Of a DNA stretch of 18,578 nt, positions 1-17,139 are shown piece by piece. The translations under genes and the position numbers were made by a program. The stretch lies in the IMG/VR virus record IMGVR_UViG_2778261535_000010; one strand, given 5' to 3'. Source of the stretch: a virus (Duplodnaviria > Heunggongvirae > Uroviricota > Caudoviricetes). A model generated the notes under the pieces. It saw only the letters and a program-made list of their open reading frames with translations. It was not told the DNA's origin and searched no databases. The stretch's first letter is position 1, and every line of letters starts with the position of its first letter.

Positions 1-444
1 CTCATTCAGCAAATGCTGGATCTGCTTAAAAGCGGTAAAGACGCCGCAACGGGTGATGCTGACACGGTTGATACCCCGGAACAGGCCGCTGATGTGGTGG
101 CAGATGTTGCCGCCCAGATCGCTGATGCTGCCGACGAGGTGGCTGAGCTGGCGCAGGACGTTATCGAAAACCCGGAAGACGAAGTCAAAGCGGAAGAATT
201 CAGCGCCGCCAAAGCCAACCTGGCAAAAGTCATGAAGTCATTCAATGTGACGCCAACGAAGCGCCCGCGCGCCAGCCGTCGCCGTGACTTTTCCGCCCGT
301 CGCCAGCCAGCTGACAACCAGATGGACAACCTTACCACGCAGCTGACTACCGTCCTGACCAAGTTGTCAGCGATGGAAAACGGCAATACGCGCCGCCCTG
401 GCAGTGCGCCAGGCGGAAGCAAAGAACCGTTTGAGTTTGTTTAA
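1..444 (+). CDS. capsid scaffolding protein (gpO-like), 5' partial
   Basis: The reading frame is open from base 1 (LIQQMLDLL...), so the N-terminus is outside the window. Ala/Asp/Glu-rich, directly upstream of the major capsid gene as in P2 (O then N). Confidence 0.7.
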   Translation, partial: LIQQMLDLLKSGKDAATGDADTVDTPEQAADVVADVAAQIADAADEVAELAQDVIENPEDEVKAEEFSAAKANLAKVMKSFNVTPTKRPRASRRRDFSARRQPADNQMDNLTTQLTTVLTKLSAMENGNTRRPGSAPGGSKEPFEFV

Positions 445-472
445 CAGCCATTCTTTTCAGGAATAAAAGATT

Positions 473-1495
473 ATGCAATTAACCCCAAAAGCAGAGCAGA
501 TGCTGCGTAAGTTTGCCGCAGGCCTGGCGAAAGCTAACGGCCAGGTGGACACGTCGCGCTACTTCTCGCTGACAAATCCGAAAGAAACCCAGCTGCGCAA
601 TGCCCTGTTGCAACAGTCTGAGTTCCTGCGCCTGCTGCCTAACGTGCTGGATGTGGACCAGATCACCGGCCAGGTGGTCAGTACCGGTAAACCGGGTATT
701 TATACCGGGCGCAAAAAGGACGGTCGTTTCTCCCGCCCCCTGGGTGTTACCGGGAATGAATACAAGCTGGTAGAAACGGATTCCGGTTCGTATCTGCCTT
801 ATTCCCTGCTGGTTGTCTGGGCGAACGCGGGCAGCGAAGAAGAGTTCTTCCAGCGTATTCAGGCATTCAGCAACGAATCATTCGCACTGGATATGCTGCG
901 CGTGGCGTTTAACGGTACGAGTGCTGCAGACGACACCGACCCGGAAACCAACCCGAGCGGCGAAGACGTTAACATCGGCTGGCACCAAATCGTTAAGGCC
1001 CGTTCGTCTGAGCAGATTATTTCTGATGCCGTCACTATCGGCGCGTCGGGTGCTGACTTTATTGGTCTGGATGCGGCTGTCACTGACCTGGTGCACACCT
1101 GCATTTATGAGCCATTCCGCAATGACCCGCGCCTGGTTGTGCTGGCTTCCGCTGACCTTATCGGCAACGACGCCACCACGATGATGAATAAGATTGATCG
1201 CCCGACTGAGAAGGTCGCCGCGCAGCTTATTGGCCGTCAGATTGCTGGCCGTACCGTGTACACCCCGCCGTTTATGCCGGAGGGTCGCCTTATCGTCACC
1301 ACGCTGGACAACCTGCATATCTATACCCAGCAGGGCACACGTAAGCGTAAAGCGGAATGGAACGACGACCGCAAGCGCTTCGAGAATAACTATCTGCGCA
1401 TGGAAGGTTACGGCGTCGAGCATGACGAGCTGTATGCGGCATTCGACAAAATCACCCTTGCGACCGGCGAAGTTGCACCGGGAGGGGGCGCGTAA
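473..1495 (+). CDS. major capsid protein (P2 gpN family)
   Basis: 340 aa; AGGAA Shine-Dalgarno 10 nt upstream. Motifs recalled from P2 gpN are present in the same order (AFNGT, DVNIGW, PPFMPEGRLIVTTLDNLHIY versus P2 FNGV, DVAVGW, PYFPADAMLITKLENLSIY). Confidence 0.85.
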   Translation: MQLTPKAEQMLRKFAAGLAKANGQVDTSRYFSLTNPKETQLRNALLQQSEFLRLLPNVLDVDQITGQVVSTGKPGIYTGRKKDGRFSRPLGVTGNEYKLVETDSGSYLPYSLLVVWANAGSEEEFFQRIQAFSNESFALDMLRVAFNGTSAADDTDPETNPSGEDVNIGWHQIVKARSSEQIISDAVTIGASGADFIGLDAAVTDLVHTCIYEPFRNDPRLVVLASADLIGNDATTMMNKIDRPTEKVAAQLIGRQIAGRTVYTPPFMPEGRLIVTTLDNLHIYTQQGTRKRKAEWNDDRKRFENNYLRMEGYGVEHDELYAAFDKITLATGEVAPGGGA

Positions 1496-1497
1496 AA

Positions 1498-2199
1498 ATG
1501 GCCATGACCCCGTGTCAGCGACACCGAGCACGCGTGAAAGCCGCAAAGGCGCTGGATAAGTGCGAAGCCCTGACGGCATCGCCGGTCAGCTTTCACATTC
1601 AAATGCTGGAGCTGGAAAGGGATGTTGAACGGCTTCGCAGTCTGACGCGTGCAGAACGTATGGACATGAAGCGCGACGTTCTTTTGCCGCGCTGGATGCC
1701 GACCGTCGAGGCATATCTCGCCGGTGATGCCCGCTTTGCCAATCCGGCCCTGGTTTACTGCGTGATCTGGTTGTTCGATACGGGGGAAATGGGCAAGGCG
1801 CTGGACTGGGCTGACGTGGCTATCAGTGAGAGCCAGGCCACGCCGGAGAACTTCAAAAGCAACCTGCCTGCCTTTGTGGCCGACACGGTGCTGGAGTGGG
1901 CGATCATGCAGGCGGAAGCCGGTCACAGCATCGAACCCTATTTCAGCCGCACGTTTGAAAACATCCGCGAAAAGTGGCGTTTGCACGAAGACATTAACGC
2001 GAAGTGGTTCAAGTTTGCCGGCCTTTACCTGCTGCGCGACGAGAAGGGGCAGCCGCGAGCCACTGCCGTGGATGATGTGAACACGCTGGAGCAGGCCGAC
2101 GCCCTTTTGGCCCAGGCGGCGGCGTACAACAAAAACGCCGGAGTTAAGACCATGCGCGAAAAAATCCGCGCCCGGATTAACGGCCTGAACCAGCTTTAA
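1498..2199 (+). CDS. terminase endonuclease (small) subunit, gpM-like
   Basis: 233 aa; starts 2 nt after the capsid stop with a GGGAGGGGG RBS; position O-N-M matches P2 synteny. Confidence 0.7.
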   Translation: MAMTPCQRHRARVKAAKALDKCEALTASPVSFHIQMLELERDVERLRSLTRAERMDMKRDVLLPRWMPTVEAYLAGDARFANPALVYCVIWLFDTGEMGKALDWADVAISESQATPENFKSNLPAFVADTVLEWAIMQAEAGHSIEPYFSRTFENIREKWRLHEDINAKWFKFAGLYLLRDEKGQPRATAVDDVNTLEQADALLAQAAAYNKNAGVKTMREKIRARINGLNQL

Positions 2200-2301
2200 A
2201 GACTCCCGCTAGCCGGGACGGGCGCGGGGGAGGCATCAACCATGCGGTTGTTGGCCGTGGAACCCGTTAGCCCGTTTCTATTGCAAAACCGAGGTACGCC
2301 A

Positions 2302-2775
2302 ATGAGTGGCCCAAGTTTCAGTATCAGCGGCAAGCCAGTGATGGTGACGCCAACAGCGATCACCAACGGCGTGACGTTCTGGCCCGATCTCGATCTGGCC
2401 GAGTTTCAGAAGGTGCGCACGCTGCCCGCTGATCTGCCGCCAGAAACCGCAGGCGTGGCCCTGCTGGCTGCTATTGCGGAGGTAAACGACGCGCTGGCCG
2501 ACGTGGTGACGTACTGGAACGCGAAAGCCTGCGAGCGGGCCGCAGATGTACCGGGTGCAAAGATGGGCGACGAAACCCAGTTAACAGCCCAGTACAAAAA
2601 AGCGGTCTACGCCCGCGCAAAGGCCGATTTACTGGGGGAGTTCGCCACCATCGGGCGGCGTGAATCGCATCCGGGACAGGAAAGCCAGGACACCCGCGCC
2701 AGTCTGTTGGCCGAGGCGGCCAACGTGATGCGAAACATGCTGCGACAACCTCGCGTTGGGGTGCATCTGATATGA
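2302..2775 (+). CDS. head completion/stabilization protein (gpL-like)
   Basis: ATG at 2302 preceded by GAGG at 2291-2294. The ORF track extends to 2242 but that upstream Met has no RBS. Position after gpM matches P2. Confidence 0.6.
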   Translation: MSGPSFSISGKPVMVTPTAITNGVTFWPDLDLAEFQKVRTLPADLPPETAGVALLAAIAEVNDALADVVTYWNAKACERAADVPGAKMGDETQLTAQYKKAVYARAKADLLGEFATIGRRESHPGQESQDTRASLLAEAANVMRNMLRQPRVGVHLI

Positions 2776-3248
2776 GCCAGCTTGAAAGCCTGACGACATT
2801 TATTACGGAAAATCTGCCGCCTGATGCCATGCAGATGTTTTCCAGTGTGATGGAAGATTGCGGGCTGACACGCAACGCCAAAGCGATGGGAAACAACCAG
2901 CGCCGGATCGGGGTGCTGACTTACACCGGTCGTTTGTCATGGGATGATTTCCCCTACCGCAAGTATTCGCCGGGGCTGATTTATGCGCTGGTGCTGGCCT
3001 GGGTGGATGAGTTCGCCAACGAGCTGCGCGACGAGCTGAGGCTGGATGATCCAAAAGTGGACCCGGAGTTCGACGACGAAGGGGCATGCATTCTGGATGT
3101 GGTCATCCCGCTGGTTGATCCGCTGGTTTTGCGTGAAGCGGAAAACGGCCCGATCCCCTACAAAGGCAAGCGCTGGGAAATCGTGGACCCCGAAATCTGG
3201 GAGGCGTCGCAACTGGAATTTATTGTCCAGCGTGGTGACGCGTCGTGA
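2772..3248 (+). CDS. tail completion protein (P2 gpR-like)
   Basis: 158 aa; start overlaps the gpL stop (ATGA). The motif TYTGRLSWDDF...LIYALVLAWVDE resembles the P2 gpR pattern (TDFTG...PVLAWL) as I recall it; size is close to P2 gpR (155 aa). Confidence 0.5.
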   Translation: MSQLESLTTFITENLPPDAMQMFSSVMEDCGLTRNAKAMGNNQRRIGVLTYTGRLSWDDFPYRKYSPGLIYALVLAWVDEFANELRDELRLDDPKVDPEFDDEGACILDVVIPLVDPLVLREAENGPIPYKGKRWEIVDPEIWEASQLEFIVQRGDAS

Positions 3249-3940
3249 TCCGGGGGGAGCTGAACCAACAACAGCTAAAGCAGATGCGGGAAACGCTGGC
3301 AAAAGCTGACCTTCCCCCGCGTAAGCGCCAGCGCCTTTTATGGCGTATTGCAAAGCTGGGCATTGTCGCAGCGGCAAAACGTCACCAGCGCCAGCAGGCG
3401 GCCCCGGGCGGTACGCCGTGGGAGCCGCGCAAGCGTGGCAAAGGGAAGATGTTAAAAGGGCTGCCCAAGCTGTTGGCCGTGCGCGAAATGCCAGAGATTC
3501 AGGGGGTAAGAATTTACCTCAAGGGCGGGAACTACCGGAACGGGACGAAGCCGATCGCGGCGGGCCTGGTCGGTGCGGTCCAGCAGGACGGCGCACGGAT
3601 CCAGATGAAAGCCAGTAACGCCCCGCGCAAGCCGCAGGCTGACCAGCCAGCGCTACCGCGACAGGCCAAGCGTCTGCGGGCACTGGGCTACAAAACCCGC
3701 AAGGGCAAGCGCTGGGTTAAGCCGTCCAGCAGGCAAATCATGGAAACCATGAGCATGGCCCAGGCGGGATTACTGATTCGAAAACTGAAAGGCACACCAT
3801 CAAAACGCACATGGACTATTGATATTCCTGGTCGCGTTTTTCTGGGGGTGAGCAACGACGAATTTAACCAAATTATTGCGCGGCAAATGCAGGCAATCGG
3901 CTTCGGCTGGGACGTCAACGCGCAGCAAATCAGGGGGTAA
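3245..3940 (+). CDS. virion morphogenesis / tail completion protein (gpS-like)
   Basis: 231 aa; GTG start overlapping the previous stop (GTGA). Lys/Arg-rich central region. The nearest ATG alternative is at 3284. Confidence 0.45.
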   Translation: MIRGELNQQQLKQMRETLAKADLPPRKRQRLLWRIAKLGIVAAAKRHQRQQAAPGGTPWEPRKRGKGKMLKGLPKLLAVREMPEIQGVRIYLKGGNYRNGTKPIAAGLVGAVQQDGARIQMKASNAPRKPQADQPALPRQAKRLRALGYKTRKGKRWVKPSSRQIMETMSMAQAGLLIRKLKGTPSKRTWTIDIPGRVFLGVSNDEFNQIIARQMQAIGFGWDVNAQQIRG

Positions 3941-3942
3941 AA

Positions 3943-5085
3943 ATGACCTGGCCTACAGTCAACGTCAGTCAGAAAAACCGCTTCAACGGCACAACGAACG
4001 ACGTCGAGCGCGTCATCCTCTTTGTGGGTTACGGCGACACTAACATCGGGAAAACCCAGTCGCTTAATACCGGCAGCGATCTGGTTAAAGCTCTGGGCGA
4101 CAAAGACAGCCCGTTAAAAAATATGGTGGCCGCAGCAGCCAATAACGCCGGTCAGAACTGGTTTGCTTACGTGCATGTGCTGGCAGAGCCAGACAAGGGA
4201 GCCGAGGGCTACAAACCAGACGAAGACTGGATGAACGCGGTCAAACAGGCCCAGAGCGTGGCATCCGTGGAAGGGGTTGTCCTGGCATTTGATACCGCCG
4301 ACGCAGCCACCATTAACCGCGCAACGGAAATGCGCGTCACCTTACAGGCCAGTTTTGGGCGTTTTATCTGGTTTGCCCTTGCTGTGGGCGGGCCGGAAAA
4401 GGACGAAGCGTGGAGCGACTATGTGACGCGCCTGGCTGAACTCCAGGACGGTATTGCATCGCCTGGAGTGCAACTGGTCCCGCGTCTGTGGGGTAACGAA
4501 CCCGGCGTCCTGGTCGGTCGCCTGTGTAACCGTTCGGTGACGGTGGCAGACAGCCCCGCCCGCGTCGCAACCGGCGCAGTCACCGCGCTGGGGAGCGACG
4601 GCCTGCCGGTCGACGGGACGGGGGCCGAAATTGATCTGGCCGTGTTGCAGTCCTTGCAGGCGAACCGCTACAGCGTGCCGATGTGGTATCACGATTATGA
4701 CGGCATCTACTGGGCTGACGGTCGCACCCTGGACGTTGAAGGCGGTGATTATCAGGTGATTGAAAACGTGCGCGTGGTTGATAAAGCCTCCCGCCGCGTC
4801 CGTCTGCGTGCAATCCCAAAAATTGCCGATCGTTCACTGAACAGCACACCGGGCAGCATCGCCGCGCATGAAACCTATTTCGGCAAGCCGCTGCGCGAAA
4901 TGGCGATTTCAACCCAGATCAATGGCGTCGAATTTCCGGGCGAAGTGAAGCCACCAAAGGACGGCGACATCACCATCACCTGGACCAGTAGCGAAGCGGT
5001 GCAGATTTACCTTGTGGTTCGACCGTATGAGAGCGCGAAAGAAATCAGCGTCAGCATCGAACTGGACACCTCACTGGAGAGCTAA
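3943..5085 (+). CDS. tail sheath protein (putative)
   Basis: 380 aa, in the size range of contractile sheath proteins, directly followed by a 151-aa tube-sized gene, in a prophage that also has TMP and baseplate genes. AGGGGG RBS. Confidence 0.5.
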   Translation: MTWPTVNVSQKNRFNGTTNDVERVILFVGYGDTNIGKTQSLNTGSDLVKALGDKDSPLKNMVAAAANNAGQNWFAYVHVLAEPDKGAEGYKPDEDWMNAVKQAQSVASVEGVVLAFDTADAATINRATEMRVTLQASFGRFIWFALAVGGPEKDEAWSDYVTRLAELQDGIASPGVQLVPRLWGNEPGVLVGRLCNRSVTVADSPARVATGAVTALGSDGLPVDGTGAEIDLAVLQSLQANRYSVPMWYHDYDGIYWADGRTLDVEGGDYQVIENVRVVDKASRRVRLRAIPKIADRSLNSTPGSIAAHETYFGKPLREMAISTQINGVEFPGEVKPPKDGDITITWTSSEAVQIYLVVRPYESAKEISVSIELDTSLES

Positions 5086-5088
5086 TCA

Positions 5089-5544
5089 ATGACTGAACGT
5101 ATCAGCGGTGGATCGTTCGATGTGAACTACGACAGCATCATGATTCACGTCGAAAACGCCACCGTCACCATTACGGATAACAGCGCCGTTGCGCAGTCGC
5201 GTGGCATCCCGAACGGCCACACGAAAGGGGCAGTTTCGGCGGATGTGGAAGTCGAAGTCGACTCCCAGAACTTTAAAAAGTTTACCGCCGTGGCCCGTGC
5301 CGCAGGTTCCTGGCGATCCATTCCGGCAAAGGACTTTTTGTTCTACGCCAACGCCGGGGACGACGAAGAAAAAATCGAGGTGTTTGGCTGCGTTCCGACG
5401 CTGTCCGACATCGTCAACATCAACCCCAACGAGGCCAGCAAAACCACGAAGAAAATTAAATTCATGGTGACAAGCCCGGACTTTGTCGCGATTGACGGCG
5501 TGCCGTACCTGTCAGCCCGCGACACTCGCGATTTGAAAGGCTGA
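5089..5544 (+). CDS. tail tube protein (putative)
   Basis: 151 aa; starts 4 nt after the sheath stop. Size and position are typical for a tube protein. Confidence 0.5.
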   Translation: MTERISGGSFDVNYDSIMIHVENATVTITDNSAVAQSRGIPNGHTKGAVSADVEVEVDSQNFKKFTAVARAAGSWRSIPAKDFLFYANAGDDEEKIEVFGCVPTLSDIVNINPNEASKTTKKIKFMVTSPDFVAIDGVPYLSARDTRDLKG

Positions 5545-5548
5545 CACG

Positions 5549-5860
5549 ATGATGAACGGAGAAACGTCACTGCTTGAAAAGCTGTTGCTTATCGGGGCCG
5601 TGATTGGCCTGGGGCAACTGATGGTCAGCAATGAGCGAATCACAACCCGCCTGCTGGTCGGGCGGATGATTCTGGGATCTGCGGTCGCACCGCTGGCCGC
5701 AATCCCGCTGCTGAAATTCCCCGATATGCCGGAACTGGTCGTCATTGGGCTGGCCTGCGCCCTGGGCATTCTGGGAAGCGCGTTTATTGAGGCCGGGTTA
5801 AAGCGCTGCCTGGATATGTATATCAAGCGATGGGGGAGCAAGCGCAATGAAACTGAGTGA
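5549..5860 (+). CDS. holin (class I-like, three predicted TM segments)
   Basis: 103 aa; tandem Met-Met start. Three hydrophobic stretches (LLEKLLLIGAVIGLGQLMV, LLVGRMILGSAVAPLAAIPLL, LVVIGLACALGILGSAFIEAGL) and a charged C-terminus (KRCLDMYIKRWGSKRNETE). Lies immediately upstream of the endolysin. Confidence 0.6.
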   Translation: MMNGETSLLEKLLLIGAVIGLGQLMVSNERITTRLLVGRMILGSAVAPLAAIPLLKFPDMPELVVIGLACALGILGSAFIEAGLKRCLDMYIKRWGSKRNETE

Positions 5861-6185
5861 AAAACAGCAACTTTTCACGGTGATGATCGCCAACCTGATT
5901 CATTTTGCCGAAGAAAAGGGTTATCGCCTGACGTTTGGCGAAGCGTACCGCACGCCGGAACAGGCCGCGCTTAACGCAAAAAAAGGGAGCGGCATTACTA
6001 ACAGCCTGCATACCCAGCGCCTGGCGGTGGATTTTAACCTGTTTATTAACGGCGATTACCAGACCGACAGCGCCGCATATCGCCCACTGGGCGAATACTG
6101 GGAATCTATCGGCGGATCGTGGGGTGGCCGTTTCAGTAAGCCGGACGGGAACCATTTCAGTCTTGAGCATAACGGGGTTCGCTGA
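5847..6185 (+). CDS. endolysin, L-alanyl-D-glutamate peptidase (peptidase M15 family)
   Basis: 112 aa; GGGGGAG RBS. Contains SLHTQRLAVDF (His-x6-Asp) and a C-terminal DGNHFSLEH His, the zinc-ligand pattern of T5-type M15 endolysins. Start overlaps the holin 3' end. Confidence 0.75.
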   Translation: MKLSEKQQLFTVMIANLIHFAEEKGYRLTFGEAYRTPEQAALNAKKGSGITNSLHTQRLAVDFNLFINGDYQTDSAAYRPLGEYWESIGGSWGGRFSKPDGNHFSLEHNGVR

Positions 6186-6568
6186 TGCGCAATTTGCTGG
6201 GTCTTTTGCTGATTCTGGTCGCTGCAATGTCAGCGGGCTGGCAGGCGCATGACTGGCACGACGCAAAGCTGCAACTCGCTGCCAGTGAAGCGGCAGAACA
6301 AACACGCCAGATTGTCGTTGAAGTGACGCAACAGTCTGGCGAAGCGCTGGAAGCAAAACTCGCGGGGCTAAAAGCCAATGAAAGGCACACGGAACGGGTT
6401 ATTCGCACAGAAATCATTAAGCCGGTTTTTAGCAACGTTTGCGCTTCTGATGATTACGTCCGGTTGTTCAACGAAAGTGCAGATCAAGCCGAACGAGAAT
6501 TATCAGGAAAACCAGCTGACACTTTGCCCGGTCACGCTGCCACGTCTGGCCGGACCGACCGGAAATGA
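6185..6568 (+). CDS. i-spanin (Rz-like)
   Basis: 127 aa; ATG overlaps the endolysin stop (TGATG). N-terminal TM segment LLGLLLILVAAM followed by a charged, probably coiled-coil, periplasmic region. Confidence 0.65.
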   Translation: MRNLLGLLLILVAAMSAGWQAHDWHDAKLQLAASEAAEQTRQIVVEVTQQSGEALEAKLAGLKANERHTERVIRTEIIKPVFSNVCASDDYVRLFNESADQAERELSGKPADTLPGHAATSGRTDRK

Positions 6569-6674
6569 CTTTGACGCGGCGCTGACAGCCTACCGGCAGA
6601 TGTATACCGACTGCGCCGCCCGACATAACGCCCTGGTGGGCATCATTCGACAACGTAAGGAATTAGCACAATGA
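6378..6674 (+). CDS. o-spanin (Rz1-like lipoprotein), +1 frame overlapping Rz
   Basis: Starts inside Rz in another frame and extends past the Rz stop. Signal peptide with a lipobox-like FALLMITSGC. The true start codon is uncertain. Confidence 0.55.
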   Translation: MKGTRNGLFAQKSLSRFLATFALLMITSGCSTKVQIKPNENYQENQLTLCPVTLPRLAGPTGNDFDAALTAYRQMYTDCAARHNALVGIIRQRKELAQ

Positions 6675-6940
6675 GTAAACCGAAAAAAATCGCCATGACC
6701 GTGGCGGGCGTAAATCTGAGCTTTGAGCCGAATAAAACCGCGTTTAACAACCTGCTTAACGAAATGACCATGACCAATAAGGTTGCCCCTATGGTGACGT
6801 ATCTGGGCCGCATTGTTGATGCCGAGTGTAAAGAGTCGCTCAACAAGCTGATGGAAGATTATCCGGGTTGCGAAATGCAGATCGTCGAGAAGGTTAACGA
6901 GATTTACTCCCCCAAACTTGAGATCGAAGTAAAAAACTGA
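6671..6940 (+). CDS. tail assembly chaperone (gpE-like), zero-frame product
   Basis: 89 aa; lies directly upstream of the tape measure gene; ends in the slippery heptamer A_AAA_AAC followed by TGA. Confidence 0.65.
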   Translation: MSKPKKIAMTVAGVNLSFEPNKTAFNNLLNEMTMTNKVAPMVTYLGRIVDAECKESLNKLMEDYPGCEMQIVEKVNEIYSPKLEIEVKN

Positions 6941-7128
6941 CGGCGCGGGTGGCGGCCATTCGCAAGAATGCGCTTGAGCAATACCTTGCCCTGCGCCGCT
7001 ACTACCTCCCGCACGAAGCCGACGACGAAGAAAGCATCGCCCGCGCCCTGTGGCTGGACGAGTATTTTGCCCAGACCCGCGCCAGCAAGACGGCGGAAGG
7101 GATAGCCATCGCATTTAACGGAAACTGA
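6671..7128 (+). CDS. tail assembly chaperone, -1 frameshift fusion product (E+E'-like)
   Basis: Slippery A_AAA_AAC at 6931-6937 in the zero frame. The -1 frame is open from 6937 to the TGA at 7126-7128 (63 extra codons, LTARVAAIRKNALEQYLALRR...IAFNGN) and has no start codon of its own. It ends 1 nt before the tape measure ATG. Confidence 0.6.
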
Positions 7129-7129
7129 T

Positions 7130-9244
7130 ATGAGCCACCTGGATTTTACCCTGAGCCTGATCGATAAGCTGACGCGGCCATTAAAAACGGCCCAGTCTTC
7201 GCTGTCTGGCTTTGCTGAAAAATCGCAGGCATCTTTTACAAAAATCGGGATCGGTGCGGCGGCTGTCTGGGGCGTGGCGCAGTCCATCGCGGGCGTGGTG
7301 GGTCCGGCATATGAGATGAACGCCGCACTTGCAGAAGTGGGTTCCAAAGGCGTGGCAGAGGACGCGCTGAAGCGTCTGTCCGGCGAAGCTATGCGATTCA
7401 GTATGCGCTACGGCAAAGGGGCCGTTGATGTGGTCCGGTCAAGCTACGCGATGAAAGGTGCAATGGCGGGCCTGTCCGATCTGGACCTGCCCCGCGTCAC
7501 CATCGCGGCCAATACCCTTGCGGCAGGCGTCAAGGCCAGCGGCGAAGAGGCAGGCGAATACATCGGCGCGATGGCGTCACGTTTCAACGCGGAGTTGTCC
7601 AGTCTGGGCCATGTGCGTTTTGCCGAAGAGCTGGCAGGGAAAACCGCGTACATGGTGCAAAACTTCGGCGTGAAAATGCAGACCATGCAGGAGCTTATCG
7701 AGGGGACGAAAAGTGCCGGTGCTGACTTTGGCGTCAGCCTGGATGAACAGTTCGCCGTCCTGGGTACGCTTTCGCGCACGCTGGGTACTGAGGCCAGCGG
7801 GATCTACGAGCAGTTTTTACGCAGCGCCCCGGCTGCCGCTGAAAAGCTGGGTATGAGCTTTGTCGATGCCACCGGAAAAATGCTGCCGATGGGCGACATT
7901 CTGCAAAAACTCCAGAGTAAATACGGGCAGAGCATTGAAGGGAACGTCAAGGCACAACAGGCGCTGGACGCCGCGTTCGGTGGCGGTGCTGACGTTATCA
8001 AAAAGCTGTACGGCCAGCAGGATAAATTAAATCGCAGTATCACCGAGCTGGGCCGAAACGACGGGATGAAACGCGCCCAGGAAATGGCCGCACGAATGGC
8101 CGAGCCGTGGGAGCGTATCAAAGCGACATTCTTTGCCATTCGCGTGGCGATTGGTAACAGGCTGATCCCTATTCTGTCACCGCTGATGAACCGTATTGCC
8201 GACGTGGGGACAAAATTTGCCCGCTGGCTGGATATGTTCCCGAATATTGCCCGCTGGCTGGGTTACATCACCCTGGGCGTGCTGTCCTTCGGGCTGGCCG
8301 GGGCGGCGGTCAATATCGTGATGGGGGTCTTTGGCTTCACCATGATGGGGCTGGCCGCAATCGCAAAAGTGCTGGGCGGTGCATGGAAACTCCTGTTATG
8401 GACGCTCAACCTGTTGCGTCCGTCCCTGCTGACGACGCGCATCGGTCTGGCCGCATTATGGATCCAGTCAAAATTGCTGGCGTTGTGGACGGGCGTCTGT
8501 CGCATCGCGCTTGCTGCATGGAATATCGCGTTAAAGGCCGGGGCCATTGCCATGCGGGTTTACGGTGCGGCGACCATGTTTGCCGGGGCTGCAATGCAAT
8601 TCCTGATGAGTCCGATCACCCTGATTATTGCCGGACTGGCGCTTCTGGCTGTGGGGGTCTGGTATGTCGTCACCCACTGGGAAGAACTGGCGGCAGCGAT
8701 CATGGATACGGCGGCTTTTGCCTGGGTGATGTCAGTCGCTGAACAGGTGGGACAGGTGTTTGCGCAGGTCTGGCAATCCATTACTGACGGCTGGGCCGTG
8801 GTGGTTGATTTCTTTGCCGGTCTTTCCCCGCTCGCCACCTTTGAAGGGTTCGCACAGACCATCGGCGGGGTATTCAGCAAACTTTTCGACGTCCTCAAAA
8901 ATACCTTTGCATCTACCTATAACTGGATTGTTGAGAAGTTAAACAAGATCCCCGGCGTCAACATCGACCTGAAAACCGTTTCGCCACCGGCAGCGGCTGC
9001 CGTTCCGGCAAACGCGGTCGTTCCTGACAGTGCTGCAGGTTCGTCGAAGCTGAACAGCCCGTCCGTGCTGACGGGGAACCGAATTAATGCAGACATCCCA
9101 CGCGGCGGCCTGATGAGTCAGGTTAAAACCGACAGCAAAACCGCTGTGGATAACCGTAAATCGTGGGGCGACACCTACATCAACGCCCCCAATGGAATCA
9201 CCCCGGCCCAGCTGGCTGAATGGCAGGAGCTTAACGCAGGATGA
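7130..9244 (+). CDS. tail tape measure protein
   Basis: 704 aa; follows the frameshifted chaperone; Ala/Gly-rich with a long central hydrophobic, helix-rich block (NIARWLGYITLGVLSFGLAGAAVNIVMGVFGF...). Confidence 0.85.
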   Translation: MSHLDFTLSLIDKLTRPLKTAQSSLSGFAEKSQASFTKIGIGAAAVWGVAQSIAGVVGPAYEMNAALAEVGSKGVAEDALKRLSGEAMRFSMRYGKGAVDVVRSSYAMKGAMAGLSDLDLPRVTIAANTLAAGVKASGEEAGEYIGAMASRFNAELSSLGHVRFAEELAGKTAYMVQNFGVKMQTMQELIEGTKSAGADFGVSLDEQFAVLGTLSRTLGTEASGIYEQFLRSAPAAAEKLGMSFVDATGKMLPMGDILQKLQSKYGQSIEGNVKAQQALDAAFGGGADVIKKLYGQQDKLNRSITELGRNDGMKRAQEMAARMAEPWERIKATFFAIRVAIGNRLIPILSPLMNRIADVGTKFARWLDMFPNIARWLGYITLGVLSFGLAGAAVNIVMGVFGFTMMGLAAIAKVLGGAWKLLLWTLNLLRPSLLTTRIGLAALWIQSKLLALWTGVCRIALAAWNIALKAGAIAMRVYGAATMFAGAAMQFLMSPITLIIAGLALLAVGVWYVVTHWEELAAAIMDTAAFAWVMSVAEQVGQVFAQVWQSITDGWAVVVDFFAGLSPLATFEGFAQTIGGVFSKLFDVLKNTFASTYNWIVEKLNKIPGVNIDLKTVSPPAAAAVPANAVVPDSAAGSSKLNSPSVLTGNRINADIPRGGLMSQVKTDSKTAVDNRKSWGDTYINAPNGITPAQLAEWQELNAG

Positions 9245-9576
9245 GTACCGAACCGTTATACATCGACCTTTTGATCACTGACGGCGATTTCACGCTGGAC
9301 AGCGGCAACGAGCCGCGCCGTTGCGATAACCGCGACAGCATCACCCAGGACATTATTCACAGCATTCTGGAAAGCGGTATCACCACCCGCCTGATCGGTG
9401 AGCGCAGCCCGACAATGCGCGGTGACGTGCTGACGCAACTGTCCTTACTGGTGGAAAGCGACGAACGTCTGGTCCCCGGCACCATATTGATCACCGAAGA
9501 AACCCTTTCGCGGTTGTATGTCACGGCGGAAACCTACGATTTCGGCCCTGTCGGTACAGAGGTTAACTATGACTGA
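9241..9576 (+). CDS. baseplate protein, possibly gp25/gpW-like wedge
   Basis: 111 aa; ATGA overlap with the TMP stop. Weak gp25-like pattern (DSITQDIIHSILESGITTRLIGER). Sits immediately before the baseplate J gene. Confidence 0.4.
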   Translation: MSTEPLYIDLLITDGDFTLDSGNEPRRCDNRDSITQDIIHSILESGITTRLIGERSPTMRGDVLTQLSLLVESDERLVPGTILITEETLSRLYVTAETYDFGPVGTEVNYD

Positions 9577-10753
9577 GAAACCCGACATTGATTTTGAAAA
9601 AGTGCTGAATGACAGCGGGATGCCCGCGACAGAGGCCGAAATTACGGCGGCATTTAAAGCCACCGTGCAGGCGGAAGGGTTCGTCACAAATACGTCGAGA
9701 ATGTCACCTTTCTGGCGGCTGATTTCGAAGATTGTCACCACGCCGGTGTTATGGCTGCGGGCGGCGCTGATCGATGTGGTTCTGCGCAATATGTTTGTCG
9801 CGACGGCCACCGGTCCAATGTTGCGCCTGCTGGCCTGGGCGGTCCATATCGTGCCTAAACCCGCCAGCGCTGCCGCTGGCGTGCTGCGGTTCTACAAGCT
9901 GAACGCGGCGGATGTGGTCGTCGTGCCAGCCGGAACACTGGTGCAAACCGAGCGTATTAACGGCGTGGTTTACGTGCTGGCCGTGAATGAAGACGTGACG
10001 CTGCCTGCCGGGGTTGAAAGCGGGCTGGTTCCCGTCACGGCGACCGGCACCGGTAGCGGCTATAACCTTGCGCCCGGCTATTACCGGATCTTACCTGTTG
10101 CGGTGGCCGGGATTGCCAGCGCGGTAAACGAGGACGAATGGCTGATTACGCCAGGGGCTAACGAGGAAAGCGACGACGAGCTGCGCGACCGGACCCGCAA
10201 CCAGTTTAATCTGGTAGGTAATTACCACTCTGACGCTATTTACCGCAGCATGATTGCCAGCGTGCTGGGCCTGAGCGTTGATCGCATTTACTTTTTGCAC
10301 GATGCCCCGCGTGGGCCGGGTACGGCAAATGCTTACCTGTTGCTGGACAGTGGCGAAATATCACAGCCCTATATTGATGCGGTTAACGACTATGTGAATA
10401 CCCAGGGCCACCACGGACACGGTGATGATCTGCAGTGTTATGCCATGCCGGAAACCAGCCACACCCTGGCGGTGACGGTCTACGTCAAAAGCGTGGAAAA
10501 CATGGAAGCGGAAGACCTGAACGCGTTAAAAACCGGTATTACTGACCTGATTCGTTGCGCGTTTCGCGAGAACGCCAATTACGACGTTAAAAAGACGCAG
10601 CCCTATTCGCGCTATTCCTTTTCGAATCTGGGCCGCGAGATCCACAAGGCTTTTCCGGTTGTCGATTCACTGCATTTTTCACTGACGGATATTGTCAGCG
10701 AACTGTCGGTCCCGCGCCTGTCAGGGTTAACGGTGGAGGTTGAAAATGACTGA
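9569..10753 (+). CDS. baseplate J-like protein (gpJ/gp47/gp6 family)
   Basis: ATG at 9569 with GAGG 7 nt upstream (the track ORF begins at 9518 without an RBS). About 394 aa. Position between the wedge and gpI-like genes matches P2 W-J-I order. Confidence 0.7.
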   Translation: MTEKPDIDFEKVLNDSGMPATEAEITAAFKATVQAEGFVTNTSRMSPFWRLISKIVTTPVLWLRAALIDVVLRNMFVATATGPMLRLLAWAVHIVPKPASAAAGVLRFYKLNAADVVVVPAGTLVQTERINGVVYVLAVNEDVTLPAGVESGLVPVTATGTGSGYNLAPGYYRILPVAVAGIASAVNEDEWLITPGANEESDDELRDRTRNQFNLVGNYHSDAIYRSMIASVLGLSVDRIYFLHDAPRGPGTANAYLLLDSGEISQPYIDAVNDYVNTQGHHGHGDDLQCYAMPETSHTLAVTVYVKSVENMEAEDLNALKTGITDLIRCAFRENANYDVKKTQPYSRYSFSNLGREIHKAFPVVDSLHFSLTDIVSELSVPRLSGLTVEVEND

Positions 10754-11339
10754 GTTTTCAACCTTGCTTGCCGGTCTGAAATTGCCGTCGTGGCTGAACA
10801 AAGGCGACCCCGCCAGGCTGTTGCGTGGCTGCGTGAAATTCTGGTCGCAGGTGTACGGGTGGATTACCTGGCCGTTAAAGCAGTTTGACCCACTGGTCTG
10901 CCCCGAACCGCTGTTAAACCTGATTGCCTGGGAACGCGACATCGTTCGGTTTAAGGGGGAGCCGCTCGACATTTTCCGCAAACGGGTGAGTTACGCATTT
11001 ATCAATGCGCAGCAGGCCGGAGAGGTGGCGGGCTTTATTGCCATTTTTGAGCGACTGGGGATTGGTTACGTTGAATTACTGGAGCGGCAGGACGGACTCG
11101 ACTGGGATGTGATTGTCGTTCGGGTGACAAACAGTCAGATTGCGGAAAATGGCGATCTCCTGCTGGAAATTATCCGTAAATATGGGCGTACATGCCGCCG
11201 TTACCAATTTGAAGTGATCACAGCCCTGCCACTGAATATCAATATCGGCTGGTATCAGGGGGAATATATTTGCTGGCCTGCCACCCTGAGTGATGTGAAT
11301 AACCAGCCCCAAATAACATACAGCGCAAGTTTGAAGTAG
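10746..11339 (+). CDS. tail protein I-like (baseplate, gpI family)
   Basis: ATG at 10746 with GGAGGT RBS; overlaps the J-like stop by 8 nt. About 197 aa, immediately upstream of the tail fiber. Confidence 0.55.
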   Translation: MTEFSTLLAGLKLPSWLNKGDPARLLRGCVKFWSQVYGWITWPLKQFDPLVCPEPLLNLIAWERDIVRFKGEPLDIFRKRVSYAFINAQQAGEVAGFIAIFERLGIGYVELLERQDGLDWDVIVVRVTNSQIAENGDLLLEIIRKYGRTCRRYQFEVITALPLNINIGWYQGEYICWPATLSDVNNQPQITYSASLK

Positions 11340-11350
11340 AGGAAAAACCT

Positions 11351-13036
11351 ATGTCACAGGCTGTTATTACAAAAGCATTTACAGAGTGGAAAGCCCAGCA
11401 GGCTATTAATAATCAGCCCGTCACGCTGGATGAATTTATTTTTGCGTATATTCCGGGGTTGGATGCTGATAAGCCGATTGATAATACCGAGACAGCACCC
11501 GCAGTGGATAAAATTGTTTATCGTCAGGTGGTGAGTAAATCCGGTGTTGTGAATGAAAACTCTGTCGTTTATTCCGTCACTATGGGGGCGGATGTGGGTG
11601 ATTTTGATTTCAACTGGATCGGTCTGGCAAATAAAGCCACCGGTACACTGGCGATGATTATTCATGCCCCGACCCAGCGTAAAATCAAAAATGCGAACGG
11701 CCAGCAGGGAAACGTTCTGGTCCGTTCCATGCTGATGGAATACAGCGGAGCCAGGGAAGCAACGGAAATTACCACCCCGGCAGAGACATGGCAGATTGAT
11801 TTTACTGCCCGGCTGGCGGCAATGGATGAACGCCAGCGCCGCGAAAATATCGATCTGTATGGCGCAGCGGCTTTTTTTGATTCGGGCTATCTGGTAGCCA
11901 AAACCGGCAATCAATTTTTTGTCACAAAGGGGGCGGGATACGTCGCCGGGTTACGTGCTGAATTGCCCGCAAACATGAATATCACTGCATCCGCGAAGCC
12001 AACAAAGGTCTGGCTTGATGTCAGCTGGACCGGGACGTTAACGAGCGAATGGGCAGTGCAGAGCAAAATCACCGTTGCCGCAGATCTTGCCGATTATGTA
12101 CTGGGCGGTGTGCAGCATTATGTCTTTGCGGTGGCGAGTATTGATGCTACCGGAAATGTCATGGACCTGCGCCCGAAAGGCACGCTGAACCACCAGGCGG
12201 CCAGTGATGCGCTGAAAAAGCATGAGCAGTCGCGAAATCACCCTGATGCCTCAATCAGCGAAAAAGGGTTTGTGCAGTTAAGCAATGCCACGAACAGCGA
12301 TTCCGAGACACTGGCCGCCACGCCAAAGGCAGTAAAAGCGGTGAATGAGAATGCGAATAAGCGCGTTCCTTCCGAACGCAAAGTGAATGGTAAGCCACTG
12401 ACGGAAGATATTGAGATTACGTCGATAACGGGTAATGCAGGGACTGCCACGAAGCTGGCTACAGCCCGCACTATAGGGGGAGTGGGGTTTGATGGTTCGG
12501 CTAACATTAATCTGCCGGGTGTAAACACTCAGGGAAACCAGAACACTACGGGTAATGCAGGGACTGCCACAAAGCTGGCTACAGCTCGCACTATAGGGGG
12601 AGTGGAGTTTGATGGTTCGGCAAACATTAATCTGCCGGGGGTAAACACTCAGGGAAACCAGAACACCACAGGTAACGCTGCAACAGCCACAAAGTTGCAT
12701 ACAGCTCGCACAATTAATGGCGTTGTTTTTGACGGTACGAAAGATATTGCTATTTCAGCAAGTGCGATTGGTTCCTACACAAAAGCGGAATCTGATGCAC
12801 GATTTCAGATAATTGTTCCTGTTTCTGGTGCGGTGGGTACTTATGCCTTCGCCCGAATTGAATCAGGTAATACCACTATTAATTTTGGTTCCACTCTGCC
12901 CGGTTCAGTACTTCGTGCAACATGTGGAGATGGCACTCTGGCCGGTAATGCTCTTGCAGGTACATGGCGATGTTGTGGAGCAACTTGGGGATCTTCCTGG
13001 TACAGTCGAAATACTGTATGGATTCGCATTGTATAA
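11351..13036 (+). CDS. tail fiber protein
   Basis: 561 aa. Contains SETLAATPKAVKAVNE and tandem KLATARTIGGVxFDGSANINL repeats typical of phage tail fibers. Followed by a tail fiber assembly gene. Confidence 0.85.
   Translation: MSQAVITKAFTEWKAQQAINNQPVTLDEFIFAYIPGLDADKPIDNTETAPAVDKIVYRQVVSKSGVVNENSVVYSVTMGADVGDFDFNWIGLANKATGTLAMIIHAPTQRKIKNANGQQGNVLVRSMLMEYSGAREATEITTPAETWQIDFTARLAAMDERQRRENIDLYGAAAFFDSGYLVAKTGNQFFVTKGAGYVAGLRAELPANMNITASAKPTKVWLDVSWTGTLTSEWAVQSKITVAADLADYVLGGVQHYVFAVASIDATGNVMDLRPKGTLNHQAASDALKKHEQSRNHPDASISEKGFVQLSNATNSDSETLAATPKAVKAVNENANKRVPSERKVNGKPLTEDIEITSITGNAGTATKLATARTIGGVGFDGSANINLPGVNTQGNQNTTGNAGTATKLATARTIGGVEFDGSANINLPGVNTQGNQNTTGNAATATKLHTARTINGVVFDGTKDIAISASAIGSYTKAESDARFQIIVPVSGAVGTYAFARIESGNTTINFGSTLPGSVLRATCGDGTLAGNALAGTWRCCGATWGSSWYSRNTVWIRIV
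12428..12750 (+). repeat. in-frame 120-bp tandem repeat inside the tail fiber gene (two near-identical copies plus a diverged third)
   Basis: Copy 1 (12428-12547) and copy 2 (12548-12667) differ at about 5 positions. From 12668 the homology continues but is diverged (GNAATATKLHTARTINGVVFDG). Confidence 0.9.
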
Positions 13037-13049
13037 TTTGGAGGTGCTT

Positions 13050-13448
13050 ATGTTTGAGAATGCAACGATTGATAACCCTCGAACCACAAATATCAATATT
13101 TATATTGATGTGGATATTCACCTGAATGATCAATCAATTACTTTTACTTCGATGCCTGACGACTCCGAAATATATAGTGTTGAGATTTATAAACGCGCTT
13201 TAAATGGCGAGTTTGGAAAAATTATAACTATTGAAAATGATGTTTTTTCGGCAAACAAACTACAAAAAGACATGTTGCAATCAAGGGCGGCTGAATCAAT
13301 TACTGTTCTTGAATATGCGGTTGAATTGAAAATGGCAACGGAAAAGGAAATGCAACTACTCAATGAATGGAAAAAATATGTAGTTTTATTAAGCCGCGTT
13401 AATTTAACAAACCCTAAATGGCCGGAGGTTCCGGGCGATGTGGCGTGA
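13050..13448 (+). CDS. tail fiber assembly protein (Tfa/gpG-like chaperone)
   Basis: 133 aa; GGAGG RBS with ATG at 13050. C-terminal NPKWPEVP motif typical of Tfa proteins. Markedly AT-rich compared with neighbouring genes. Confidence 0.7.
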   Translation: MFENATIDNPRTTNINIYIDVDIHLNDQSITFTSMPDDSEIYSVEIYKRALNGEFGKIITIENDVFSANKLQKDMLQSRAAESITVLEYAVELKMATEKEMQLLNEWKKYVVLLSRVNLTNPKWPEVPGDVA

Positions 13449-14674: not shown

Positions 14675-14681
14675 TTAAACG

Positions 14682-16515: not shown

Positions 16516-16952
16516 GGCCCACAGCGTAAGCGACAGCAGGCAGACGGAAGCGGATCCAGGACGGAAACGGCGCTACACCGCACCCGCCTGCGCAGTTTGG
16601 ATCATAAAAATTTTGCAAAAGAAATTTTGCGCAAAGCACCCCGCCAGCCTGCGCCGCTGATGGGATTTTGCATCCTGCGGGCGTTTGCACGCTGCGCAAA
16701 GATTTGCAGCACTTTGCAAAAGTCACCGCGCAGTCAGTCGCTAACTGACTGGATAACATGATGTTTTTAAAAGGATCGTTTTGGTTTTCGTGACGATCAA
16801 AATGATTCGGTGGCATCCGGTAGTTTTCGGACGCGGATATCGTGAAGCCTTGCGCGGCGCGGGCTGGCGGCAGGTTTGCTTTGATTTGGGTTTTGCAAAA
16901 TGATGCACGAAGATTTGATAAAAGAATCTACAGCGAAGGGGGGGGAAGTATT

Positions 16953-17045: not shown

Positions 17046-17072
17046 AAAAAATAAGCCCGTGTAAGGGAGATT
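17046..17072. other. P2-type attachment site core (prophage-host junction, attR or attL)
   Basis: AAAAAATAAGCCCGTGTAAGGGAGATT matches the 27-bp P2 att core from memory. It coincides with the 3' terminator half of cyaR. Phage-type sequence lies to the left and host genes to the right. Confidence 0.65.
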
Positions 17073-17132: not shown

Positions 17133-17139
17133 GAAACGG

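What the first reader, a model, noticed from the sequence alone, without database searches (positions are those of the whole stretch)
5549..6674. Complete lysis cassette sits between the tube and chaperone genes, splitting the tail module
Holin, M15 endolysin and overlapping Rz/Rz1 spanins form a tight block with overlapping start and stop codons (holin/endolysin overlap, TGATG, ATGA). They lie between the putative sheath/tube genes and the chaperone/TMP genes. In P2 the lysis genes sit between head and tail modules, so this placement is atypical. Rz1 starts inside Rz in another frame and runs 106 nt past the Rz stop (overlapped rather than embedded architecture).
Basis: partly seen in the sequence, partly recalled or inferred. 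Interest (0 to 1): 0.45.

Follow-up and report, generated by a model that had tools for sequence, protein, structure and literature searches.

The report
HP1-type prophage lysis cassette, ordinary
The holin, endolysin and two spanin genes really do sit between the tail-tube and tail-chaperone genes, but this is the normal, long-published gene order of the HP1-like branch of P2-family phages, and the prophage is 98% identical to a sequenced Salmonella phage.

Summary
The cassette is holin (5549-5860), M15 peptidase endolysin (5847-6185), i-spanin Rz (6185-6568) and overlapped o-spanin Rz1 (6378-6674). The junctions are as described, and Rz1 runs 106 nt past the Rz stop.

The flanking 380-aa and 151-aa proteins are a tail sheath and a tail tube by predicted fold. 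The genes downstream are a tail assembly chaperone with a -1 frameshift partner, then the tape measure protein.

The placement is not atypical for this lineage. The window is 98% identical to Salmonella phage SI7 (Peduoviridae, Irrigatiovirus). Annotated phages of 10 Peduoviridae genera, including HP1, carry their lysis genes in the same slot. So do 88 of 89 loci surveyed, and the single exception keeps a remnant of Rz1. A 2020 paper on the HP1 lysis genes states this position explicitly.

What varies across the lineage is the content of the slot, with several unrelated cassette types. This one combines a P2 gpY-like holin and a LysC-like o-spanin with an M15 peptidase.

The only increment over the public record is that Rz1 is not annotated in the SI7 RefSeq entry. 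Verdict: real, ordinary, already known.

The parts
3943..5085 (+). Tail sheath protein (380 aa, DUF2586 family)
5089..5544 (+). Tail tube protein (151 aa, HP1 Orf24 / DUF2597 family)
5549..5860 (+). Holin (103 aa), P2 gpY family, three hydrophobic segments and a charged C-terminus
   Evidence: Pfam Phage_holin_3_2, 9.2e-21; phrog_175 holin, 2.6e-34. 38% identical to P2 gpY, E 1e-17. Hydropathy segments at about 8-28, 35-57 and 58-84, with K/R at 85, 86, 93, 94, 98, 99.
5847..6185 (+). Endolysin (112 aa), zinc peptidase of the M15 / LAS type, no signal or membrane segment
   Evidence: Pfam Peptidase_M15_4, 39.9 bits against cut-off 25; phrog_1768 endolysin. H55, D62, D100 and H103 are invariant in 15 homologues. 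A profile of these matches the Ply500 L-alanyl-D-glutamate peptidase 2vo9, E 2.7e-4, and weakly the T5 endolysin 2mxz. Maximum hydropathy 0.78, so no TMD.
6185..6568 (+). i-spanin (Rz-like, 127 aa), N-terminal membrane anchor
   Evidence: phrog_1152 'Rz-like spanin', 3.9e-38. Hydrophobic residues 1-21, followed by a charged periplasmic part with one Cys (C86).
6378..6674 (+). o-spanin (Rz1 / LysC-like lipoprotein, 98 aa), +1 frame of Rz, overlapped architecture (106 nt past the Rz stop)
   Evidence: phrog_2425, 7.1e-30; phrog_456 'Rz-like spanin', 1.9e-5; Pfam LysC, weak, 0.0072. Lipobox ITSG|C30. The frame, the lipobox [TLMI][ST][GA]C and two further Cys are conserved in all M15-cassette loci. 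Weak alignment to P2 LysC with lipobox and Cys in register. Not annotated in SI7 RefSeq.
6671..6940 (+). Tail assembly chaperone (89 aa), start overlaps the Rz1 stop (ATGA)
   Evidence: Pfam Phage_TAC_10, 7.9e-30; annotated as chaperone in SI7.
6931..6937 (+). Slippery heptamer A AAA AAC for a -1 frameshift joining the chaperone to the downstream ORF
   Evidence: Read from the sequence. An in-frame X XXY YYZ heptamer plus a -1-frame downstream ORF is present in 87 of 89 related loci. Analogous to P2 E/E+E'.
6937..7128 (+). -1 frame extension of the chaperone (DUF6890; listed as ORF 6949-7128)
   Evidence: Pfam DUF6890, 1.9e-22. In the -1 frame relative to the chaperone.
7130..9244 (+). Tail tape measure protein (704 aa)
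   Evidence: Pfam PhageMin_Tail, 2.9e-18; phrog_28, 7.2e-85.

Best explanation
The window is the late morphogenesis region of an HP1-like P2-family prophage (Peduoviridae, Irrigatiovirus, SI7-like). It is integrated next to the cyaR sRNA gene and yegQ/trhP in an Escherichia-type chromosome.

Coordinates 5549-6674 are its complete lysis cassette, in the standard position for this lineage, between the tail tube gene and the tail assembly chaperone gene.

Inferred mechanism:
1. The cassette has no promoter or terminator of its own and is probably co-transcribed with the head and tail genes as part of one long late operon.
2. The gpY-type holin accumulates in the inner membrane and, at its programmed time, forms holes.
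3. The holes release the soluble cytoplasmic M15 zinc peptidase, probably an L-alanyl-D-glutamate endopeptidase, which cuts peptidoglycan peptide stems.
4. The Rz (inner-membrane anchored) and Rz1 (outer-membrane lipoprotein) complex then disrupts the outer membrane.

Shown here: gene identities, conservation of the order, conservation of the catalytic residues and the lipobox, and the sheath and tube folds. Inferred: the operon structure, the bond cleaved, and lysis activity itself.
For: Identity of the prophage:
- 98.2% DNA identity over 3.3 kb to Salmonella phages SI7, SW3 and SW5.
- About 95% identity in 18 E. coli genomes at the same chromosomal site.
- CyaR at 17049-17134; the flank is about 98% identical to E. 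coli yegQ/trhP.

Gene identities.

Folds: tube and sheath.

Conserved order tube, lysis, chaperone, tape measure protein:
- SI7, HP1, K139, phiO18P, phi3, C5a, SMHB1, ESSI-2, vB_YenM_324 and F108.
- 88 of 89 loci, with 1.1-2.7 kb between tube and chaperone.
- The one exception, L078, still has the 3' end of Rz1 in front of the chaperone.

Literature:
- PMC7312051 places the HP1 hol and lys genes between ORF24 (tube) and ORF25, and shows experimentally that they cause lysis.
- Spanins of HP1, K139, phiO18P and ESSI-2 are catalogued in PMC6139136.

Operon context: no sigma-70-like promoter and no plus-strand terminator lies in or beside the cassette. No gap between plus-strand genes from 13 to 16406 exceeds about 45 nt. 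GC content is not distinct from the neighbours.
Against: - No experiment on this cassette was found. The literature searches run here returned no paper on SI7/SW3/SW5 or the M15-cassette phages, so lysis activity is inferred by homology.
- The lipobox has T at position -3 (TSGC), outside the strict [LVI][ASTVI][GAS]C consensus quoted in PMC6139136. Homologues carry LSGC, MSGC, ISGC or LSAC at the same place.
- The sheath model is low-confidence overall (pLDDT 55.6, residues 260-380 below 50).
- The single-operon claim rests only on the absence of consensus signals. Activator-dependent late promoters of the P2 type would not be found by the scan.
- Whether this particular prophage is inducible is unknown.
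Confidence: 0.93

Rival explanations
1. The cassette is a recent, lineage-specific insertion (moron-like acquisition) that split a formerly contiguous tail module in this prophage. On this reading the placement is truly unusual.
For: P2 keeps FI-FII-E-E'-T contiguous and has its lysis genes elsewhere. The content of the slot differs between relatives, which shows that exchange occurs there.
Against: The same position is occupied by lysis genes in 10 annotated genera infecting Haemophilus, Pasteurella, Vibrio, Aeromonas, Pseudomonas, Pseudoalteromonas, Salinivibrio, Cronobacter, Yersinia and Salmonella. It is also occupied in 88 of 89 loci. GC content matches the neighbours. Junctions are tight, with 4-nt and overlapping boundaries.
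Confidence: 0.03
2. The Rz1 reading frame is a chance open frame. The phage would have only the Rz-like protein, or some other outer-membrane disruption function.
For: Rz1 is not annotated in SI7 RefSeq. The Pfam LysC match is below threshold at 16.7 bits against 27. The lipobox deviates at position -3.
Against: The frame is open in every M15-cassette locus down to about 53% amino-acid identity. A basic N-terminus, a hydrophobic stretch, the lipobox Cys and two further Cys are conserved, as is the motif LPRL...CAARHN. phrog_2425 matches at 7e-30. The ESSI-2 homologue is listed as an o-spanin in PMC6139136. vB_YenM_324 annotates it as O-spanin. HP1 has an analogous unannotated lipoprotein ORF in the same place.
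Confidence: 0.03
3. The cassette belongs to a decaying, non-inducible prophage and no longer functions, even though the ORFs look intact.
For: The host context is a chromosome. Relatives such as L078 show deletion of the cassette. The left part of the prophage, with the regulatory genes, is outside the window.
Against: All 23 late ORFs in the window are intact and tightly packed. The region is 98% identical to SI7, a phage record whose listed source is irrigation water rather than a bacterial genome. The catalytic residues and the lipobox are intact.
Confidence: 0.05

Closest known systems
Salmonella phage SI7 / SW3 / SW5 (Peduoviridae, Irrigatiovirus; NC_049460, MK972712-14)
   Same: 98.2% nucleotide identity over sheath through chaperone. 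Identical gene order, with annotated holin, endolysin (M15 family peptidase), Rz-like spanin, chaperone and tape measure protein.
   Different: The SI7 record leaves Rz1 unannotated, with an empty stretch at 10039-10142. The GenBank version labels the sheath 'topoisomerase IA'. The tail fibre differs: 561 aa here against 648 aa in SI7.
Haemophilus phage HP1 lytic cassette (hol, lys, orf25), between orf24 and orf26
   Same: Same slot: sheath orf23, tube orf24, hol, lys, Rz-like orf25, chaperone orf26, tape measure orf27. The position and the lysis function are published (PMC7312051). HP1 also has an overlapped lipoprotein ORF ending just before the chaperone gene. The tube is 52% identical and the sheath 53%.
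   Different: HP1 uses a pinholin plus a signal-arrest-release lysozyme. Here there is a three-segment gpY-type holin plus a soluble M15 peptidase. HP1 has an 87-nt gap before hol; here the gap is 4 nt.
Phage P2 lysis genes Y, K, lysA, lysB, lysC
   Same: The holin is 38% identical to gpY. The spanins are overlapped, with the o-spanin in the +1 frame running past the i-spanin stop and overlapping the next gene. The o-spanin is weakly LysC-like. The cassette is embedded in a late morphogenetic operon and flanked by tail genes.
   Different: In P2 the position is between L/X and R/S, not between FII and E. The P2 endolysin K is not an M15 peptidase. There is no lysA equivalent here. The P2 sheath and tube (FI, FII) show no detectable sequence similarity to the sheath and tube here.
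L-alanyl-D-glutamate peptidase endolysins (Listeria phage A500 Ply500 catalytic domain, 2vo9; phage T5 endolysin, 2mxz)
   Same: The family profile aligns to 2vo9 at E 2.7e-4. The His, Asp and His of the zinc site are in register (H55, D62, H103) and D100 is conserved.
   Different: Only 112 aa, with no cell-wall-binding domain. Similarity to T5 is marginal (E 0.09). The bond cleaved has not been tested.
Lambda S-R-Rz-Rz1
   Same: The same four-function logic: holin, endolysin, inner-membrane spanin, outer-membrane lipoprotein spanin. This rests on established knowledge and PMC6139136.
   Different: Lambda Rz1 is fully embedded in Rz, whereas here it is overlapped. The lambda endolysin is a transglycosylase. 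The lambda cassette lies at the start of the late operon, ahead of the head genes, not inside the tail genes (established knowledge).

Membership tests
Canonical holin-endolysin-spanin lysis cassette | Small membrane protein with two or more transmembrane segments and a charged C-terminus (holin) | tested here: met
   Pfam Phage_holin_3_2, 74.5 bits against cut-off 25; 38% identity to P2 gpY; three hydrophobic segments and a K/R-rich tail.
Canonical holin-endolysin-spanin lysis cassette | Muralytic enzyme encoded adjacent to the holin | tested here: met
   Peptidase_M15_4, 39.9 bits against cut-off 25. Invariant H55, D62, D100 and H103. The profile matches the Ply500 peptidase 2vo9.
Canonical holin-endolysin-spanin lysis cassette | Soluble endolysin that depends on the holin (no signal or SAR segment) | tested here: met
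   Maximum 17-residue hydropathy is 0.78, with no hydrophobic segment. Holin dependence itself is inferred.
Canonical holin-endolysin-spanin lysis cassette | Expression causes host lysis | not testable with these tools
   Shown experimentally only for the non-homologous HP1 hol/lys pair in the same slot (PMC7312051).
Two-component spanin, overlapped architecture | i-spanin with an N-terminal transmembrane anchor and a periplasmic domain | tested here: met
   phrog_1152, 3.9e-38. Hydrophobic residues 1-21 followed by a charged remainder. Coiled-coil content was not computed.
Two-component spanin, overlapped architecture | o-spanin with a lipoprotein signal and lipobox Cys, not Asp at +2 | tested here: met
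   Signal MKGTRNGLFAQKSLSRFLATFALLMITSG|C30-S. The lipobox position is conserved as [TLMI][ST][GA]C with S or T at +2 in all homologues. T at -3 lies outside the strict consensus quoted in PMC6139136.
Two-component spanin, overlapped architecture | o-spanin gene starts inside the i-spanin gene in another frame and ends beyond its stop | tested here: met
   Start 6378 in the +1 frame of Rz; ends 106 nt past the Rz stop. In homologues it runs 49-178 nt past.
Two-component spanin, overlapped architecture | Periplasmic cysteines available for intermolecular disulfides | tested here: met
   Rz has C86; mature Rz1 has C50 and C79, conserved in homologues. Disulfide formation was not tested.
HP1-like Peduoviridae (Hpunavirus and allied genera) | P2-family capsid, small terminase and head-completion genes, followed by tail terminator and tail completion genes | tested here: met
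   phrog_70, 74, 71 and 65; phrog_26; same order as HP1.
HP1-like Peduoviridae (Hpunavirus and allied genera) | DUF2586 sheath and HP1 Orf24-type tube rather than P2 FI/FII | tested here: met
   Pfam hits. No similarity to P2 FI or FII by hhalign.
HP1-like Peduoviridae (Hpunavirus and allied genera) | Lysis genes located between the tube and the chaperone / tape measure genes | tested here: met
P2-type (Peduovirus) late gene order | Lysis genes between L/X and R/S; FI-FII-E-E'-T contiguous | tested here: not met
   P2 order from NC_001895. Here the terminator and completion genes precede the sheath, and the cassette separates the tube from the chaperone.
M15 / LAS zinc peptidase | H-x6-D and D-x2-H zinc-binding and catalytic motifs | tested here: met
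   S53-L-H55-T-Q-R-L-A-V-D62 and D100-G-N-H103, invariant in 15 sequences and aligned to 2vo9.

The most novel reading that the evidence does not exclude
The tube-chaperone junction of HP1-like phages may be a maintained exchange slot.

What the evidence shows: across the lineage the slot holds at least five unrelated lysis cassette types:
- gpY-holin with M15 peptidase
- pinholin with SAR lysozyme
- a K139 type
- a phiO18P type
- a C5a/SMHB1 type

It also holds extra genes, namely a DksA-like zinc finger and a DNA methyltransferase. In the window and in HP1 the o-spanin gene abuts or overlaps the chaperone start.

The novel reading is that the position is selected. It would tie holin dosage and lysis timing to tail-gene expression, or couple chaperone translation to the o-spanin. 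The alternative is that the position is a frozen accident of ancestry.
Probability: 0.12. Interest if true: 0.3.

Novelty: already known. Interest (0 to 1): 0.08.

Why it matters
It matters little beyond annotation hygiene. The gene order has been in the public record since the HP1 genome and is stated in PMC7312051. The prophage is a near-copy of a sequenced phage.

Three practical points follow:
- The o-spanin Rz1 is missing from the SI7 RefSeq annotation and from the HP1 record, and its PHROG family (phrog_2425) is labelled 'unknown function'.
- The DUF2586 sheath is mislabelled 'topoisomerase' in some GenBank and RefSeq entries.
- P2 should not be used as the synteny reference for the HP1-like half of the Peduoviridae.

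Tried and rejected
Approaches that led nowhere:
- Profile searches of the sheath and tube against PDB sequences gave only chance hits or none. Fold comparison was needed.
- hhalign of the sheath and tube profiles against P2 FI and FII showed no similarity, probability below 1%. The HP1-type tail proteins therefore cannot be called FI/FII orthologues by sequence.
- The endolysin as a single sequence found nothing in the PDB. A 15-sequence profile was required.
- Rz against P2 LysB was not significant.
- A literature search for the SI7/SW3/SW5 description found nothing relevant.
- Two paper queries failed because a search term was too short.

Readings considered and rejected:
- A dual-start holin (MM at 5549-5554). 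It was not adopted because the two starts differ by no charged residue.
- An internal promoter or terminator delimiting the cassette. None was found with the sigma-70 and intrinsic-terminator scan.
- Foreign base composition. There is none.
- L078 as a counter-example to the conserved slot. It retains the Rz1 3' end and is a deletion derivative.
Full report
**What is in the window**

The plus strand from 13 to 16406 is an uninterrupted run of 23 tightly packed ORFs. PHROG and Pfam matches, and the SI7 annotation for the first item, identify them in this order:
- the end of a scaffold gene
- P2-family major capsid protein (473-1495)
- small terminase (1498-2199)
- head-tail adaptor (2242-2775)
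- tail terminator (2772-3248)
- tail completion protein (3245-3940)
- a 380-aa DUF2586 protein (3943-5085)
- a 151-aa protein of the Pfam family 'Bacteriophage HP1 Orf24' (5089-5544)
- the four ORFs of the finding
- a Phage_TAC_10 chaperone (6671-6940)
- a DUF6890 ORF (6949-7128)
- a 704-aa tape measure protein (7130-9244)
- baseplate, tail fibre and fibre-assembly genes
- two unknowns
- a large baseplate protein (14682-16406)

The minus strand carries the CyaR sRNA at 17049-17134 (Rfam, 100.7 bits) and yegQ/trhP from 17217. This flank is about 98% identical to E. coli. The window is therefore the right half of a prophage sitting next to cyaR.

**Check of the observation**

All stated coordinates and junctions are correct:
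- Holin 5549-5860 overlaps endolysin 5847-6185 by 14 nt.
- The endolysin stop and the Rz start share TGATG.
- Rz is 6185-6568.
- Rz1 (6378-6674) begins inside Rz in the +1 frame and ends 106 nt after the Rz stop.
- The Rz1 stop overlaps the chaperone start as ATGA.

Each ORF has family support.
- **Holin.** It matches Pfam Phage_holin_3_2 (74.5 bits) and phrog_175. It is 38% identical to P2 gpY (E 1e-17). It has three hydrophobic segments and a lysine/arginine-rich tail.
- **Endolysin.** It passes the Peptidase_M15_4 threshold and has no hydrophobic segment. H55, D62, D100 and H103 are invariant among 15 homologues. A profile of those homologues matches the L-alanyl-D-glutamate peptidase domain of Listeria phage endolysin Ply500 (2vo9, E 2.7e-4), with the metal ligands in register, and weakly matches the T5 endolysin.
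- **Rz.** It matches phrog_1152 (3.9e-38) and has an N-terminal membrane anchor.
- **Rz1.** It matches phrog_2425 (7e-30), a family labelled 'unknown function', and more weakly matches spanin families. In every related locus with this cassette the +1 frame stays open. It keeps a basic N-terminus, a hydrophobic stretch, a lipobox cysteine ([TLMI][ST][GA]C followed by S or T) and two further cysteines. It always runs 49-178 nt beyond the Rz stop. That pattern is strong evidence for a real o-spanin gene.

Sequence searches against solved structures were uninformative. Profiles did not align to P2 FI or FII. I therefore predicted both structures from alignments of database homologues.

The downstream pair is a genuine chaperone. 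An in-frame A AAA AAC heptamer at 6931-6937 joins it to the DUF6890 ORF in the -1 frame. The same arrangement occurs in 87 of 89 related loci and mirrors P2 E/E+E'. The module split is real.

**Is the placement unusual?**

It is not unusual for this lineage.
- The region is 98.2% identical to Salmonella phages SI7, SW3 and SW5 (Peduoviridae, Irrigatiovirus), where the same genes are annotated in the same order.
- About 95%-identical copies sit at the same chromosomal site in 18 complete E. coli genomes.
- HP1 has orf23 (sheath), orf24 (tube), hol, lys, orf25 (Rz-like), orf26, orf27 (tape measure protein).
- K139, phiO18P, phi3, C5a, SMHB1, ESSI-2, vB_YenM_324 and F108 all carry lysis genes between the tube and the chaperone or tape measure gene. 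With SI7 and HP1 these make ten genera with hosts from Haemophilus to Pseudoalteromonas.

I then fetched 80 further loci from IMG/VR with a tube profile and mapped sheath, tube, chaperone, tape measure protein and reference lysis proteins by tblastn.
- Of the 89 loci holding both tube and chaperone, 88 have 1.1-2.7 kb between them, in nearly all with recognisable relatives of the reference slot genes (lysis genes, and in some only a DksA-like zinc finger and C5a/SMHB1-type genes of unassigned role).
- 36 of them, the window included, carry this same holin, M15, Rz, Rz1 cassette with an almost fixed spacing of about 1130 nt.
- The single exception, L078, has 315 nt between tube and chaperone. 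That stretch still encodes the last residues of Rz1 (DCAARRHALA...), so it is a deletion derivative.

The literature agrees. PMC7312051 states that HP1 hol and lys lie between ORF24, the tail tube gene, and ORF25. It shows experimentally that they are a pinholin and a signal-arrest-release endolysin. PMC6139136 catalogues the spanins of HP1/HP2, K139, phiO18P and ESSI-2. It also notes that overlapped o-spanin genes are usually left unannotated.

**Comparison with P2**

P2 has L-X-Y-K-lysA-lysB-lysC-R-S in its O operon and FI-FII-E-E'-T-U-D in a separate F operon.

Three qualifications apply:
- In P2 the cassette also has a tail gene on each side (X before it, R and S after it).
- P2 lysB/lysC are overlapped in the same way, with lysC running 145 nt past the lysB stop and into R.
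- The holin here is a gpY homologue and the o-spanin is weakly LysC-like, with lipobox and cysteines aligned.

The cassette is thus a P2-type holin and spanin set combined with a different endolysin, in the HP1-type location.

**How it most likely works**

No sigma-70-like promoter and no plus-strand terminator lies in or next to the cassette. Intergenic gaps along the whole late region are at most about 45 nt. The base composition matches the neighbours.

From this I infer that the cassette is co-transcribed with the structural genes. Lysis timing would then be set by the holin, not by separate transcription.

The remaining steps follow the established holin, endolysin and spanin pathway:
1. 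The holin forms holes in the inner membrane.
2. The soluble zinc peptidase escapes and cuts peptidoglycan peptide stems.
3. The Rz/Rz1 complex disrupts the outer membrane.

All of these steps are inferred by homology. None was tested for this cassette.

**What varies**

The slot is conserved but its content is not. Besides the M15 cassette, the survey found:
- HP1/F108-type pinholin and lysozyme cassettes
- K139-type cassettes
- phiO18P-type cassettes
- C5a/SMHB1-type cassettes

These are often preceded by a DksA-like zinc-finger gene. In phiO18P, L028 and L020 a DNA methyltransferase gene or fragment lies between holin and endolysin. This mosaicism is typical of lysis cassettes. It is the only feature here with some residual interest.

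**Limits**

- The 80 IMG/VR loci are the best-scoring of at least 575 relatives. They include near-duplicates, so the counts are not phylogenetically independent.
- Cassette types were assigned by tblastn to RefSeq-labelled proteins.
- The sheath model is weak.
- No experiment bears on this particular cassette.

**Verdict**

The arrangement is the known norm of HP1-like Peduoviridae, and the prophage is a near-copy of a sequenced phage. Novelty: already known. Interest: low.

Noticed in passing
window 17049-17134 (minus strand): The CyaR/RyeE sRNA gene (Rfam RF00112, 100.7 bits) lies immediately beyond the prophage end and next to yegQ/trhP. A terminator-like hairpin sits at 17081-17054. The prophage attachment site is probably at or near the cyaR 3' end.
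   Followed up: partly
window 6931-7128: An in-frame A AAA AAC slippery heptamer lies at the end of the chaperone ORF, with the DUF6890 ORF in the -1 frame. This is a programmed frameshift like P2 E/E+E'. The same pattern is present in 87 of 89 related loci but is not annotated in SI7.
   Followed up: yes
L078 6460-6767 (IMGVR_UViG_3300048856_000141): This is the only related locus without lysis genes between tube and chaperone. Its 315-nt spacer still encodes the C-terminal residues of Rz1, so the cassette was deleted. The locus also has an unusual region upstream of its tail terminator gene, which was not examined further. It may be a decaying prophage.
   Followed up: partly
L002 10917-11183 (HP1, record 20916-21182): An unannotated 88-aa lipoprotein ORF (MQKIKIGLMAACLTMLLAC...) starts inside orf25 and ends 3 nt before orf26. 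It is the HP1 o-spanin in overlapped architecture and is absent from the RefSeq feature table.
   Followed up: partly
MK972712.1 (SI7 GenBank) and NC_070917.1 (vB_YenM_324), sheath gene: The DUF2586 tail sheath is labelled 'topoisomerase IA' or 'topoisomerase' in these records. This is an annotation error, given the sheath fold found here.
   Followed up: partly
window 12428-12711: A 120-nt unit is repeated 2.4 times at 90% identity inside the tail fibre gene (11351-13036), giving repeated GNAGTATKLATARTIGGV.FDGSANINLPGVNTQGNQNTT segments. The fibre is 561 aa here against 648 aa in SI7, so this is the variable part of the prophage.
   Followed up: no
window 16611-16900: Three exact copies of the palindromic TTTTGCAAA(A) lie at 16611, 16712 and 16891. 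They are the only exact copies in the window, and all fall in the non-coding stretch between the last tail gene and cyaR. They may be protein-binding sites at the cos or att end. The count allowing one mismatch is not significant window-wide.
   Followed up: no
L003-L007 and many IMG/VR loci, just downstream of the tube gene: Most Vibrio, Aeromonas, Pseudomonas and Pseudoalteromonas relatives carry a roughly 69-aa DksA/TraR-like C4 zinc-finger gene between the tube and the holin. The enterobacterial M15-cassette group, including this window, lacks it. Its role is unknown; it might be a late activator like Ogr.
   Followed up: no
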